A stretch of DNA of 35,820 nucleotides from a virus (lineage: Duplodnaviria; Caudoviricetes), in IMG/VR virus record IMGVR_UViG_3300037439_000017, positions 1 to 35,820 of that record. One strand, written 5' to 3'. Below, piece after piece: positions 8,750 to 23,860 of the stretch (the first letter of the stretch is position 1; each line of letters begins with the position of its first letter). Made by a program: the position numbers and the translations under genes. Below the pieces are notes generated by a model. That model made no database searches and was not told the origin of the DNA. It saw only the letters and a list, made by a program, of their open reading frames with translations.

Positions 8750-9952
8750 TTACTTACCTCCCGTCGCGGCGGCCTTCGGGCCGGCAGCGAGTGCGTCGAC
8801 GCTGGCCTGGTAGCCGTTGTCGTTGATGGGCGTCACCGAGGCGCTGCGGAGCACCCGGTTGACCGGATCCTTCTTGGCGTCCTCGACGAGGATGTCGAAG
8901 CGGGCGTCGACGTACGCCTGCGGCTTGTCCTTGATGGCCGCATCGCCGAGCTTCGCGACCACGGCAGCCTTGCGGATGTCGTCGTCGGTCTTGCCGGAGT
9001 AGTCGGCGTCGTGGACGGCCTTCGCCGTGGCGATCAGGTCGGCGCGCGCTTTGACACGCTGGTCGAGCTGCTCGTCGCTGAGCACCTTGCCCTTCAGGCT
9101 GTCGATCTCGGCATCCTTCTTGGCGATGGTGGCGTCCCGGTCCGCAAGCGCGGTCTGGTGCTTCGTTGCCGCATCGGTCAGGGCGGTGGAGCCGTCCTGT
9201 ACCTGCTGCTGCAGCTTGGCGATGGCCTGGGCTCCCGCGTCGGTGGTTTCGACGGACAGCCCATCGACCATGACGGTCTTGGTCTTGATGGTGTCGCTCA
9301 TGGTGAGTTTCCTCGGTGGTGGGTTGTCGTCGCCGATACGAAGTTGATCCCCACCGCGCGCCCGGTCGACTAGCGCGAGGTGTTGTGCTGAAACTGGTGT
9401 TGCGCCCCAGTGACTCTTGCTGTCACCGATGCGAAGTTCTGATCCTCCGCGGGCTGCGGCGACGATGGCGACGTGGTTTTGCTTCAGGTCGGTCATGTAG
9501 GCGTCGTACGGCTCCCCCGCAGGGGAAACGCCGTCGCTGAAGACCAGCTCGGCGCTGTATCCGGCAGAAAGCTCACGGGTGCCGCGGTTGACCTCGTCGA
9601 TGGCCTTCTGGTCGCGCAACATCATCGGAACGCGGACGAATTCACCGTCGCGCATGACTTCATCGCCGACCTCGCCGCGCGCCAGGTCCTTCCAATTGGA
9701 CGCAGTCACGCCTGCCTTCGGGTGTCCGACCGTGATCGGAACGCCAGCGTACGAAGCCATCGCGTCCTGTCGGAATACCTCGTCCGCAGGTCGGAATACC
9801 CTGACGACGTGCATTTCCGGATGACCGATTTCGTCACCGAGGTAAAGCTGGACGTTCTCGGCGCGCGCGACCCGTGCGTTGAACACCGCATAGCCCTCAG
9901 CGGTCTTTCGGATGGACGCCTTGTCCACCGCGACCGTATCGATGAATTGCAT
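8750..9952 (-). CDS. Prohead protease-scaffold (DUF2213 family)
   Basis: ATG at 9952 (GAGG RBS); PITVGHP, ELSAGY, NHVAIV..ARGG..LRIGD motifs; coiled-coil C-terminus. Confidence 0.88.
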   Translation of the reverse strand: MQFIDTVAVDKASIRKTAEGYAVFNARVARAENVQLYLGDEIGHPEMHVVRVFRPADEVFRQDAMASYAGVPITVGHPKAGVTASNWKDLARGEVGDEVMRDGEFVRVPMMLRDQKAIDEVNRGTRELSAGYSAELVFSDGVSPAGEPYDAYMTDLKQNHVAIVAAARGGSELRIGDSKSHWGATPVSAQHLALVDRARGGDQLRIGDDNPPPRKLTMSDTIKTKTVMVDGLSVETTDAGAQAIAKLQQQVQDGSTALTDAATKHQTALADRDATIAKKDAEIDSLKGKVLSDEQLDQRVKARADLIATAKAVHDADYSGKTDDDIRKAAVVAKLGDAAIKDKPQAYVDARFDILVEDAKKDPVNRVLRSASVTPINDNGYQASVDALAAGPKAAATGGK

Positions 9953-9977
9953 GTTCTCTGCCTCTTGGTGGATCGAC

Positions 9978-10012
9978 AAAAGAAAAGGGCACCCGGTTGG
10001 GCGCCCCTTCTT
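9978..10012 (-). terminator. Intrinsic terminator closing the RAMP/array cassette
   Basis: Minus strand AAGGGGCGCCC-AACC-GGGTGCCCTTT followed by TCTTTT; G-U pairs form only on the minus strand. Confidence 0.7.
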
Positions 10013-10023
10013 GTCGTTTTCGA

Positions 10024-10081
10024 CCCTTGCTAAGCCATACCCGGCCATACCAAGCACAGCCCTGCTGCGCCCTACCGTGCC
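10024..10081 (-). repeat. GGY-NN pentamer array 2 (11 units plus GGG), candidate guide RNA
   Basis: Minus strand: GGC AC GGT AG GGC GC AGC AG GGC TG TGC TT GGT AT GGC CG GGT AT GGC TT AGC AA GGG. Confidence 0.9.
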
Positions 10082-10099
10082 GACTGGCGCTTACCGCAC

Positions 10100-10127
10100 C
10101 GCAATGGATGGCACGCCACCCATTACG
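10100..10127 (-). other. Long hairpin separating the two pentamer arrays
   Basis: Minus strand CGTAATGGGTGGC-GT-GCCATCCATTGCG; two G-U pairs that would be A-C mismatches on the plus strand. Confidence 0.8.
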
Positions 10128-10137
10128 CTGTTGTCAG

Positions 10138-10190
10138 CCCTTGCTACGTCGCGCCGCGCCAAGCCGTGCCTAGCCCCGCTCGGCTGTGCC
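10138..10190 (-). repeat. GGY-NN pentamer array 1 (10 units plus GGG), candidate guide RNA
   Basis: Minus strand: GGC AC AGC CG AGC GG GGC TA GGC AC GGC TT GGC GC GGC GC GAC GT AGC AA GGG. Confidence 0.88.
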
Positions 10191-10325
10191 GTGGTTCAAG
10201 CAACTGCGAAGCCGTTGGACATCCGCCGACCAGAGAAGGCAAACCAGCAGCAGGACCATGCAAGCGATGACGCCGGCTAGCTGAAGCAATACCGGTTTGC
10301 TAGTCCTGTCGATGAAGGACTTCAC
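10170..10325 (-). CDS. Possible 51-aa single-TM peptide (not in ORF track)
   Basis: GTG with AAGGA RBS; MKSFIDRTSKPVLLQLAGVIACMVLLLVCLLWSADVQRLRSCLNHGTAERG; stop codon lies inside array 1. Confidence 0.4.
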   Translation of the reverse strand: MKSFIDRTSKPVLLQLAGVIACMVLLLVCLLWSADVQRLRSCLNHGTAERG

Positions 10326-10328
10326 TGG

Positions 10329-10832
10329 TCAATCCTTCGCGGATTCATTCGTCTCCGGCTTCGCCAGAAACCGTTTGCGCTTTGCGCGCTTCGCGCTTTC
10401 CTCAAGGAACGAGAGCCGCGCCAGAGCATCGGCGTTCTTCCTCGCTTCCTCGTGGCTCAACGCACCGCGATCGATGAAGCTCAGCCGTCGCCCCATCTTC
10501 CGAAGCTCCGACTTCACACGCTTCATGCCGTGTTCCATCGCGTATTCCGTTTGCTTATCCGGCTCCACGATCATGTAGCCCTGCCCCGGTACGGCCTTCA
10601 GGCACATGTTGCGTTCTTCTAGCAGGTGGTTTGCCAACGCATCAACCTGCGCAAGCAGGGACAACCGCCATTCCTCGTACTCGTCAACCGTGATTCTGCC
10701 GGTCGGCTTCGGCAAAAGGAGCGCCGCTTGTAGCTCATCGTGCGGCACCACGTCGCCGTAGGTGTACCGACCTGCGAACAGTTCGGCGGCAGCGTTGCGC
10801 CATGCCGGCAGCAGATGGACCGCGCCGCTCAC
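10329..10832 (-). CDS. RAMP-associated accessory protein, winged-helix-like N-terminus plus helical basic C-terminus
   Basis: GTGA-coupled to the RAMP gene; GDVVPHDEL..., LKAVPGQGYMIV wing-like motif; basic tail. Confidence 0.7.
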   Translation of the reverse strand: MSGAVHLLPAWRNAAAELFAGRYTYGDVVPHDELQAALLLPKPTGRITVDEYEEWRLSLLAQVDALANHLLEERNMCLKAVPGQGYMIVEPDKQTEYAMEHGMKRVKSELRKMGRRLSFIDRGALSHEEARKNADALARLSFLEESAKRAKRKRFLAKPETNESAKD

Positions 10833-11398
10833 GACAGAACCTCAACGCCGAACCGGCCGAAACGCGGGCGGTAGGTGCCGATGCCTATGCGCCGGCCGGC
10901 TTCTTCCACTACCCGCACAAGGTCGCCCTTATCGATCACGTCCTCCATGAACTCGATATCGAACTGCGTTGCCCACGACAGGAAGATCGGCCTGCAACGC
11001 ATGATCTTCTTGCCGCCGACGTTTACCCCGCGAACATCGGCGTGCTTGTTGCCCTGCCACAGCTTTTCCTTCTTACGCGGGCCGTCATATTCCAGCTTGT
11101 GCTTGTCGTCCACGACCCGCACGGCTTGCTTGATGGTCTTGCCTAGCCGGTGAATCTTGCCGGCCTCTGCAATGCAGCCCTCGATGTTCAGCGCCGGGAT
11201 GTAGGGGCCGATCTGATCGTCGAAGTACATGCCGGCCGACCACTCCGACTCCATCAGCCAGAGGTAATCGTCCTCGGACTTCTTCTTCTTGCCGCTGACC
11301 GCCTTGTGAGCCTTGGTCAGTTCGTGCAAGGGGTTCGCCAGGGTCTCCGCCTGCATCAACAGGGGAGCGTTTCCGGTAATGCGGAACGTGATGTTCAT
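10829..11398 (-). CDS. Stand-alone Cas7/Csm3-like RAMP superfamily protein
   Basis: RAMP hallmarks: N-terminal strand ITFRITGNAPLLM, PYIPALNIEGCI (cf. PxIPGSSxKG), RPIF..W, C-terminal Gly-rich loop GRRIGIGTYRPRFGRFGV; GAGG RBS. Confidence 0.8.
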   Translation of the reverse strand: MNITFRITGNAPLLMQAETLANPLHELTKAHKAVSGKKKKSEDDYLWLMESEWSAGMYFDDQIGPYIPALNIEGCIAEAGKIHRLGKTIKQAVRVVDDKHKLEYDGPRKKEKLWQGNKHADVRGVNVGGKKIMRCRPIFLSWATQFDIEFMEDVIDKGDLVRVVEEAGRRIGIGTYRPRFGRFGVEVLS

Positions 11399-11454
11399 CG
11401 GTAAGCCTCAGTTCGTGGCCTGCTGTTTGGCGGTATGCCTAGCGCCACGCACCG

Positions 11455-11483
11455 AATATATTACCGTTATCGGATGTTTTCAA
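11455..11483 (-). promoter_or_regulatory. Sigma70-type promoter for the RAMP operon
   Basis: Minus strand TTGAAA-17 bp-TATATT in an AT-rich patch about 55 nt upstream of the RAMP ATG. Confidence 0.7.
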
Positions 11484-11548
11484 TCCTTTTAAGGGCTGTA
11501 CTATCATGATGTCGGGCTGGAATAACCCTCATCAGCGAGAATGCGACA

Positions 11549-11770
11549 ATGTCCACCATGCTCAGCGGCTCCAAACTACGCGCCATCCGATCCCTGAAGG
11601 GGATGACCCAAGCTCAGCTTGCGGAGGCCTCAGGGGTCTCCCCCACCGCCATCACCGAGTACGAAAAAGGCAAGCGCGACCTACGCGCCGACACCATTCG
11701 GAAGCTCTGCGAAGCGCTCGGCGTGCAGGTCAAGTACATCGTGGACGGGACCGAGATCACCGGCCCTTAG
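11549..11770 (+). CDS. XRE-family HTH regulator, divergent from the RAMP operon
   Basis: LRAIRSLKGMTQAQLAEASGVSPTAITEYEKGKRD..L..ALGV. Confidence 0.9.
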   Translation: MSTMLSGSKLRAIRSLKGMTQAQLAEASGVSPTAITEYEKGKRDLRADTIRKLCEALGVQVKYIVDGTEITGP

Positions 11771-23030: not shown

Positions 23031-23860
23031 GCGGCCTGGTCCTCTTTCGGCGCGCGCTCAGCGTCTCGTTCCCGCTTGAGCTGCACGCCGGCGGTCGTCA
23101 GGTCGCACTGGCCATCGCCCGGCATCCACCACAGGCGGAACCAGTTCCGGCGCACGCAGTTCTCGAACTTCTGCCGCCACCCGCGCTTGCCGGCCTGCGT
23201 GGTCTTCCCGTCGCGGTACTGCCGGACGAACTCGCGCCACGCCAACTCGAGGAAGTCGGTCGGAATCCCCGCAGTGGCAGCGAAGGCGAAAACAGCGTGT
23301 TCGAGGGGGATCAGCTTCTCGCCGTCCGTGCGACAGGCCTGGACGAAGTCGGCGTAGGTCATCCCCTTGGGCGACTTCGCCCGTTTCGGCTTGCCCTCCA
23401 CTGCTTGCCCCCTGGAAGGGGGTATGGGGGTTTCTTGATCTTGAAGAGAATCAGGAATCAGAGAATCAGGAATCAGAGAATCAGCCGGGCTCGTATCTGC
23501 CTTGGTTGTGTCTTGCACAGTGCTTGCACAGTGCTCGCCCGGTGCAGGTATGGTGCTTTTGGCCTCCTTTACATGCGGATTCTGGTGCTTGCACCATGCA
23601 AGAATCTGGATAAAGGCTTTGCCATCAACGGTGTAGCGAAGAATGAACCCGCCATCGTGCAGCGCCTGTAGTCCTGCACTGACATCGACAGGATCGGCAG
23701 GAAACACCTCCATTCGTATCTTTGTGGGGCGATCTTCGAGGCGTCCATCGCGGTCTGCCATCGTCCACAACCCCACGAACAGCAGCCGATATTCGAAAGC
23801 GAGTTCGACAAGTAGCTCGTTCTTGAAGAACCCCGGCTTGATATTGCGGGCTCGGCTCAT
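23027..23860 (-). CDS. Phage replication initiator (O-like)
   Basis: MSRARNIKPGFF.NE, LF.GLW..AD..GRL N-terminal domain; internal repeats; upstream of dnaB. Confidence 0.8.
   Translation of the reverse strand: MSRARNIKPGFFKNELLVELAFEYRLLFVGLWTMADRDGRLEDRPTKIRMEVFPADPVDVSAGLQALHDGGFILRYTVDGKAFIQILAWCKHQNPHVKEAKSTIPAPGEHCASTVQDTTKADTSPADSLIPDSLIPDSLQDQETPIPPSRGQAVEGKPKRAKSPKGMTYADFVQACRTDGEKLIPLEHAVFAFAATAGIPTDFLELAWREFVRQYRDGKTTQAGKRGWRQKFENCVRRNWFRLWWMPGDGQCDLTTAGVQLKRERDAERAPKEDQAA
23445..23556. repeat. Tandem repeats within the initiator gene (probable ori/iterons)
   Basis: (AGAGAATCAGGAATC)x2.7 at 23445-23484; 11-bp period CTTGCACAGTG CTTGCACAGTG CTCGCCCGGTG CAGGTATGGTG at 23512-23555. 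Confidence 0.65.

What the first reader, a model, noticed from the sequence alone, without database searches (positions are those of the whole stretch)
10082..10140. Array grammar: shared ends and strand-specific hairpins suggest processed guide units
Seen: both arrays start (C)GGCAC and end TAGCAAGGG, and each is followed within about 10-15 nt by a long stem. The G-U pairs in these stems work only on the minus strand. The pentamer phase is never broken even where GGY varies to AGC, TGC or GAC. Inference: AGCAAGGG plus the hairpin is a 3' handle or processing signal, and the final AA is not part of the guide.
Basis: partly seen in the sequence, partly recalled or inferred. Interest (0 to 1): 0.7.

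Follow-up and report, generated by a model that had tools for sequence, protein, structure and literature searches.

The report
VIPR guide linker, likely RNase III-cut
These repeats are two guide-RNA units of a phage VIPR system (a recently described RNA-guided DNA-silencing system) predicted to target packaging genes of rival phages, and the hairpin between them likely is a host RNase III site that would cut the transcript into separate guides, a maturation step the VIPR papers we read do not describe.

Summary
The arrays are two GGY/NN vrRNA tracts downstream of a vipr-vap1 pair (Vipr matches the solved SUSP1 Vipr, E 1e-40), so this is a type II-like VIPR system. The flagged 59 nt are the linker between the units. 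The real shared 3' handle is GG plus a 4-bp hairpin (P1). The final AA looks non-guiding: it is fixed in 42 of 47 homologous units and matched in 0 of 119 decoded targets. Guide 2 decodes to the NIRINHLALV motif of other phages' head proteases, and the phage's own copy matches only 12 of 20 bases. Internal linkers are P1-P2-P3. Across 41 P2 sequence families, the base pairs fit RNase III proximal and distal boxes, and the P1 and P3 arms supply the second box. Copies lacking an upstream tract lose P1; those lacking a downstream tract lose P3. Model: RNase III cuts after 10125 and 10101, leaving P1 as the 3' cap and P3 as the next guide's 5' cap. This is inferred; no RNA data were found, and this P2 is short.

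The parts
10829..11398 (-). vipr gene, 189 aa RAMP-like Vipr protein
   Evidence: phmmer to PDB 36pp_D SUSP1 Vipr, E 1.3e-40; K32, K81, R136 and R177 correspond to SUSP1 K33, K82, R138 and R179
10329..10832 (-). vap1-like accessory gene, 167 aa
   Evidence: tblastn to the SUSP1 gene directly downstream of vipr, E 1e-8, 30% identity over 66% of the query
10141..10190 (-). vrRNA1 GGY/NN tract, 10 units; 9 NN units decode to a terminase large-subunit motif (RVTRGYTFAAVLADE context)
   Evidence: 3 of 7 hits, tentative
10127..10140 (-). GG plus P1 (4-bp hairpin, ACAA loop): inferred 3' handle of vrRNA1; its 3' arm CAGC also forms the lower RNase III-like box in the precursor fold
10101..10126 (-). 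P2, 11-bp hairpin; predicted RNase III substrate, cuts inferred after 10125 and after 10101
   Evidence: all 11 pairs covary; box-like profile
10086..10100 (-). P3, 5-bp hairpin with GGUAA loop: inferred 5' cap of vrRNA2
10027..10081 (-). vrRNA2 GGY/NN tract, 11 units; 10 NN units decode to the NIRINHLALV motif of DUF2213/phrog_530 head maturation proteases
   Evidence: controls
10013..10026 (-). GG plus P1 of vrRNA2 (compensatory stem GUCG/CGAC)
9975..10010 (-). intrinsic-terminator-like hairpin with U run closing the cassette
   Evidence: terminator-like stems after the last unit in many homologs
11455..11483 (-). sigma70-like promoter candidate upstream of vipr (consensus match only)
   Evidence: 1 found, 0.8 expected by chance, so weak
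11549..11770 (+). divergent Cro/CI-type HTH gene of the cassette
   Evidence: Pfam HTH_3, E 2.6e-17
8750..9952 (-). the phage's own DUF2213 head protease gene; its copy of the guide 2 motif matches 12 of 20 NN bases

Best explanation
The flagged segment is the linker between two guide units of a type II-like VIPR system, and it likely is a host RNase III site that would cut one precursor transcript into separate vrRNAs. Shown: vipr and vap1 homologs, two GGY/NN tracts, a covarying P1-P2-P3 linker, and decoded target motifs under the published 1-nt skip rule. Inferred steps: (1) the cassette is transcribed on the minus strand up to the terminator at 10010-9975; (2) in the precursor, the CAGC of P1 pairs with the GGUG of P3, extending P2 to 15 positions with one G-G mismatch and giving two proximal boxes; (3) RNase III cuts after 10125 and after 10101 with the usual 2-nt offset and releases the P2 top; (4) the upstream piece refolds P1 as its 3' handle and the downstream piece refolds P3 as its 5' cap; (5) Vipr coats each tract and the NN dinucleotides, except the last AA, pair with every two of three bases in head-protease and terminase genes of competing elements to silence them, as shown experimentally for SUSP1 VIPR; the phage's own protease motif is too diverged to be bound.
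For: Identity. Targets: guide 2 units 2-10 gave 73 exact hits in viral contigs, all in one protease motif with the skipped base at the wobble position, and unit 1 (not in the query) matched in 69 of 73. A 2-nt-skip control gave 0 hits and a reversed-order control 2. In a relative's contig, 10 of 11 changes in tract 2 fall in GGY positions (Fisher p 0.036). Linker: model R1 hits 180 places in the 80 further loci searched; P2 has changes on both sides at 11 of 11 pairs. Box fit across 41 P2 families (80% single linkage): bp1 GC/CG 36 of 41; bp5 AU/UA 34 of 41 (GC/CG 2); bp6 G on the 5' strand 35 of 41; bp11 UG 25 of 35; bp12 UA 22 of 33. Arms are 13 bp in 85 of 117 unique P2. This matches E. coli pb1 GC, pb2 AU/UA, db UA/UG, an 11-bp helix above the cut and a 28-nt product (PMC1540722), GC-rich pairs between the cuts and AU at D/D' (PMC6212723), and 22 bp between db ends (PMC3867540). 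Lower box: A-U in 122 and C-G or U-G in 112 of 135 distinct rows. P1's 3' arm is CAG in 120 of 137 tails followed by a P2-like stem but 13 of 39 without one. Positional decay: the 5' arm of P1 is present in 119 of 123 internal copies but 2 of 34 leader copies; P3 is present in 115 of 123 internal but 6 of 19 terminal copies. Folds A and B are near-isoenergetic (median difference 0.1 kcal/mol, 88 elements).
Against: The window's P2 has 11-bp arms, two short of the common 13-bp class, and lacks the UG/UA distal box; removing 2 bp essentially abolished cleavage of the E. coli minimal substrate, although Aquifex RNase III ignores the db sequence. Seven of 117 P2 are only 20 nt long. The lower-stem pairs show no compensatory change, so they are not proven by covariation. 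The sequences are related: at 70% linkage 107 of 117 P2 fall in one family and the box signal rests on 10 representatives (bp5 AU/UA 6 of 10); leader copies come mostly from one clade. No leader element is found upstream of tract 1 in the window. The register was matched from the papers' text; their figures were not seen. For a homologous guide (L001/L004) the last AA matched 22 of 120 portal-motif hits and the preceding TA 0 of 120, so the edge of the pairing zone is not sharp. Guide 2's target was not found in 301 genomes of the family of the closest cellular homolog's genome, so the real competitor is unidentified.
Confidence: 0.68

Rival explanations
1. P1-P2-P3 is one uncut 3' tail of a ~109-nt vrRNA1, and the units are separated by a single-strand nuclease (such as RNase E) in the 4-nt spacer before tract 2.
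For: The unit period is 109 nt, close to the ~100-nt SUSP1 vrRNAs that keep a 40-nt structured tail. Fold A is as stable as fold B. The window's P2 is short.
Against: The element also stands upstream of the first tract with the P1 5' arm lost (2 of 34), P3 decays when no tract follows (6 of 19), and a passive tail does not explain the box-like pair profile.
Confidence: 0.15
2. The linker is a new self-cleaving ribozyme, or is cut by Vipr or Vap itself.
For: Hammerhead-interspersed vrRNA arrays exist in types I and V. The linker has invariant nucleotides. Vipr is a RAMP relative, and Cas6 RAMPs cut their own repeats (recalled).
Against: No Rfam match at gathering threshold in 11 sources, and no ribozyme family at E up to 10 in 9940-10340. 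The invariant bases are explained by the second proximal box. Hammerhead and twister cores were compared by eye from recall and did not fit.
Confidence: 0.09
3. The precursor is not cut; the hairpins only bound Vipr filaments and stabilise one multi-guide RNA.
For: No direct evidence of discrete species for this clade; the hairpins could act as steric stops.
Against: Discrete ~100-nt vrRNAs were sequenced from SUSP1 and P. fulva arrays. The base-pair rules in P2 imply recognition by a dsRNA-reading protein.
Confidence: 0.08

Closest known systems
Type II VIPR of Escherichia phage SUSP1 (bioRxiv 10.64898/2026.04.26.720920, .720927, 2026.10.15.759431)
   Same: vipr plus vap1 homologs, GGY/NN tracts of 10-11 units, tandem vrRNAs downstream of the genes, 1-nt skip code at the wobble position, viral targets, no self-match, a biased terminal NN (AT in 8 of 9 SUSP1 and Moogle units)
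   Different: The tail is GG-P1 with a P2-P3 linker instead of the SUSP1 pseudoknot (model R1 has no hit in SUSP1 or Moogle). Terminal NN is AA. The G1-reading residues H17 and D177 are Q and T here. Targets are head-protease and terminase motifs, not a satellite recombinase or lysis-lysogeny regulators.
Pseudomonas-type prophage VIPR loci (Medea1, LESphi2 and L223-L302)
   Same: Same P1-P2-P3 linker, vipr-vap1 pair
   Different: Vipr is about 41-47% identical; terminal NN is mostly AT (65 of 138 units); the scaffold relaxes G2 rather than G1; a leader copy of the linker often overlaps the vap stop codon.
T7-type RNase III sites (R1.1 and its minimal form)
   Same: Hairpin with 11 bp above the inferred cut, pb and db pair preferences, 28-nt released top for a 30-nt P2
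   Different: Here the lower stem is only 4 positions and is made of arms that can refold into two caps; cleavage is untested.
CRISPR repeat-spacer arrays (recalled)
   Same: A conserved element flanks variable guides on both sides in some loci, and units are gained or lost at the shared element
   Different: No Cas6 or tracrRNA; the linker sequence varies within one array; the guide is non-contiguous.

Membership tests
VIPR | Vipr (RAMP-homolog) gene outside a CRISPR context | tested here: met
   E 1.3e-40 to solved SUSP1 Vipr; the flanking genes are phage portal and head protease
VIPR | vrRNA tracts of 9-16 GGY/NN repeats | tested here: met
   10 and 11 units
VIPR | 1-nt skip code finds natural viral targets with the skip at wobble | tested here: met
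   73 and 119 hits vs 0 (2-nt skip) and 2 (reversed order) for guide 2; guide 1 tentative, 3 of 7 hits
VIPR | No self-target at 80% or more NN match | tested here: met
   best self matches 13 of 18 and 14 of 20 bases
VIPR | Conserved structured 3' tail after the tract | tested here: met
   GG-P1 with compensatory stems across 47 units; the parse was anchored on this hairpin
VIPR | vrRNA expressed and bound by Vipr; silencing | not testable with these tools
   no RNA holder listed
VIPR type II | vap1 accessory gene next to vipr | tested here: met
   homolog of the SUSP1 downstream gene, E 1e-8
VIPR type II | Placement in the type II clade of the authors' Vipr tree | not tested
SUSP1-clade vrRNA tail | 3' pseudoknot | tested here: not met
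   tail sequences differ and R1 has no hit in L020 or L221
Hammerhead-interspersed vrRNA arrays | Hammerhead ribozyme between units | tested here: not met
   no Rfam ribozyme hit
RNase III substrate | Proximal box preferences (GC, AU/UA, AU, AU/UA) on both sides of the cuts | tested here: met
   window bp6 GC, bp5 UA, bp4 AU, bp3 AU; lower box A-U and C-G with a G-G mismatch at pb3
RNase III substrate | About 11 bp above the cut with a distal box | tested here: inconclusive
   met in the 13-bp class (85 of 117), not in the window's 11-bp P2
RNase III substrate | rnc-dependent double cut with 2-nt 3' overhang | not testable with these tools
   needs end mapping

The most novel reading that the evidence does not exclude
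A large clade of type II VIPR systems matures its guide arrays with host RNase III through a conformational switch: one portable linker presents a two-box RNase III site in the precursor, and after the double cut its arms refold into the 3' handle of one guide and the 5' cap of the next. This would be the first defined vrRNA maturation rule and a ready-made way to multiplex VIPR guides.
Probability: 0.6. Interest if true: 0.72.

Novelty: new variant of a known kind. Interest (0 to 1): 0.58.

Why it matters
How vrRNA arrays are cut into single guides is not addressed in the VIPR texts we read. This locus and its relatives give a nucleotide-level, cheaply testable answer (host RNase III, two predicted cut sites) and define the minimal 3' handle and the non-guiding last unit, which matter for programming and multiplexing VIPR. 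It also shows a phage guide aimed at a conserved motif of the same gene family that it carries next door, with its own copy diverged at that motif.

Tried and rejected
Rfam scans: no family at gathering threshold; the weak hits are terminator-like. Hammerhead, twister and twister-sister likeness: compared by eye from recall, required helices missing, rejected. The 5' GGCAC as a conserved start: rejected. Sequencing runs: no RNA holder listed; X1 may be the source of this DNA and was not counted as support. Guide 2 pattern with up to 1 mismatch in 301 genomes of the family of G001: not found in those searched; with up to 3 mismatches in G001 and G002: none. Vipr search in 400 genomes of that class found only G001 (one further genome not scored). 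Other homologous guides against the 80 target loci L021-L100: no convincing match. Vipr not found in 5 target-bearing records, most of them fragments. The terminator control for the P2 pair profile had only 10 poorly anchored stems and is uninformative. Earlier scan findings: none by place, words or sequence. LESphi2 Vipr does not fit the residue numbering given for P. fulva Vipr, so I could not show that the tested P. fulva system has this linker. Rows dropped: 2 of 49 parsed units were false calls; L009 and L010 (duplicates), L011 (no array) and L020 (SUSP1 clade) were left out of the 47-unit set; the leader class of 34 includes about 5 misclassified rows, which were kept.

Full report
Observation. 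The window is a 35.8-kb phage record. On the minus strand, between the portal gene and a DUF2213 head-protease gene, lies a cassette: a divergent HTH gene, a 189-aa gene, a 167-aa gene, and two pentamer tracts at 10190-10141 and 10081-10027. The finding's coordinates are exactly the linker between the tracts. The tracts far exceed chance (0 of 200 simulations) and both downstream regions fold about 10 kcal/mol better on the minus strand.

Identity. The 189-aa protein matches the solved SUSP1 Vipr at E 1.3e-40 and keeps the residues that align to K33, K82, R138 and R179. The 167-aa protein matches the gene after vipr in SUSP1. This is the vipr-vap1-vrRNA layout of type II VIPR in bioRxiv 10.64898/2026.04.26.720920.

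Decoding the guides. Under the published 1-nt skip rule, guide 2 units 2-10 gave 73 exact hits in viral contigs (49 distinct contexts), all in the motif NIRINHLALV with the skip at the wobble position. One hit-bearing gene that I annotated is DUF2213/phrog_530 head maturation protease. Unit 1, absent from the query, matched in 69 of 73. Units 1-9 gave 119 hits; unit 10 matched in 69 of 119 and the final AA in 0 of 119. Controls gave 0 hits (2-nt skip) and 2 identical hits (reversed order). Guide 1 units 2-9 gave 7 hits. Three lie in a terminase-like gene and extend to unit 1 (3 of 3) but not to the AA (0 of 3); four are one unrelated, stop-containing sequence. Two of the three carriers were examined: they are short records, one with a serine recombinase and one with a D5-type primase, so a satellite-like target is possible but unproven. 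The phage's own protease motif matches 12 of 20 bases. In a related contig (run X2), 10 of 11 differences in tract 2 fall in GGY positions, so the NN code is what is conserved. These are motif-level targets; the actual competitor is unknown.

Ends. In 47 units from 17 loci, the last NGY pentamer ends in AA in 42, against 34 of 324 internal positions. GGCAC starts only 4 units and is target code here. So the non-pairing zone is at least the last unit and sometimes perhaps two. Note that in the SUSP1 cryo-EM structures all resolved NN pair with a designed target, so the last NN can pair when a match is offered. The common 3' element is GG plus a 4-bp hairpin, P1, with seven different stems among the 47 units. 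The second long stem is a terminator.

Linker. Internal linkers are three abutting hairpins, P1, P2 and P3, with no spacer bases. On a MAFFT alignment of 24 chosen linkers, 89% of cells pair and all 11 P2 pairs show changes on both sides. A model built from it finds 43 copies in 20 sources and 180 in 80 more distant loci, none in SUSP1 or Moogle. Counts on the fitted alignments lean towards the structure. The halves decay by position: without an upstream tract the P1 5' arm is lost (2 of 34 vs 119 of 123) while AGC-P2-P3 stays; without a downstream tract P3 decays (6 of 19 vs 115 of 123). CAG in P1 is kept when a P2-like stem follows (120 of 137) and mostly not otherwise (13 of 39). An alternative fold pairs that CAGC with the start of P3, extending P2; the two folds are near-isoenergetic.

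Mechanism (inferred). P2 varies in sequence but not in pair type at set positions. Placing bp1 and bp2 between the two cuts puts the AU/UA of bp5 at pb2, the G of bp6 at pb1, UG at bp11 and UA at bp12 in the distal box, leaves 11 bp above the cut in the 13-bp class, and releases 28 nt from a 30-nt P2. All of this agrees with the E. coli RNase III rules in PMC1540722, PMC6212723 and PMC3867540. The same register makes the invariant A-U and C-G of the extended stem the mirror pb2 and pb1, and puts the second cut exactly at the P2/P3 junction. For the window the cuts fall after 10125 and 10101, and the products refold P1 and P3. The register comes from text, not figures. The window's own P2 is 2 bp shorter and lacks the distal box, the lower pairs do not covary, and the sequences are not independent. 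I put the RNase III model at about 0.68 and the VIPR identity above 0.95.

What is known. VIPR, the code, structured tails, processed arrays and relaxed repeats are published. I found no mention of RNase III processing or of this linker: the discovery preprint was read whole (main text, methods, legends) and its supplement PDF has no 'RNase'; of the structure preprint I read parts 1-2 of 6 and passages; of the competition preprint part 1 of 8 and passages, where 'processing' and 'hairpin' do not occur and 'RNase' refers to RNase A; of 10.64898/2026.10.21.760802 passages only. A search for VIPR with RNase III, guide RNA and phage in 2026 papers gave 0; searches list the four VIPR-related preprints. 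RNase III papers: PMC1540722 passages and sections 10, 15 (part 1) and 22 (part 1); PMC6212723 passages and section 27; PMC3867540 and PMC3074117 passages. Figures S6, S8 and S18 and Data S1-S4 of the VIPR preprint, and the supplements of the other preprints, were not seen and may show mapped ends that confirm or pre-empt this.

Verdict. The system is a new member of a known family. The linker anatomy and its RNase III-like signature are a variant not described in the texts read, with precise and cheap tests. Interest 0.58.

Noticed in passing
window 10829-11398 (Q16, T175) vs L223-L302: Scaffold degeneracy follows the Vipr clade. Loci with Q/T at the G1-reading positions (SUSP1 H17/D177) relax G1 (G1 162 of 210, G2 198 of 210); the 70 loci with H there, almost all with E or D at the second position, keep G1 and relax G2 (817 and 624 of 828). 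SUSP1 and Moogle, with H/D, still show 57 of 70 G1, so it is a clade-level trend only.
   Followed up: partly
window 10170-10325 (-): A 51-codon hydrophobic ORF without a Pfam hit starts just after the vap stop and overlaps the first pentamers of tract 1. The related contig in run X2 runs from the vap end straight into tract 1, so about 136 nt look like an insertion.
   Followed up: partly
window 10127-10144, run X2 record: The relative carries about 110 extra bases between tract 1 and the P2 linker, with the junction in the shared AGCAAGG-P1 stretch: probably a third guide unit gained or lost by recombination between tails.
   Followed up: partly
L001:4259-4308 and L004:3913-3962: Two loci share a last guide that decodes to a GGDTVYM motif typical of portal C-termini (family name recalled, not scanned); at least 120 hits. 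With the window's guides, this clade seems to favour packaging genes.
   Followed up: partly
window 9975-11770: The cassette, with its own terminator, sits between portal and head protease, inside the structural operon; read-through to the head genes would need antitermination or a new promoter.
   Followed up: no
window P2 loop 10112-10115 and L002, L006, L012: The short 26-nt P2 class shares a GCGUGC loop region across otherwise different stems; a 20-nt class (L278, L279, L292) keeps bp5 A-U and bp6 G-C.
   Followed up: no
window 23445-23484: Perfect 15-bp tandem repeat, 2.7 copies.
   Followed up: no
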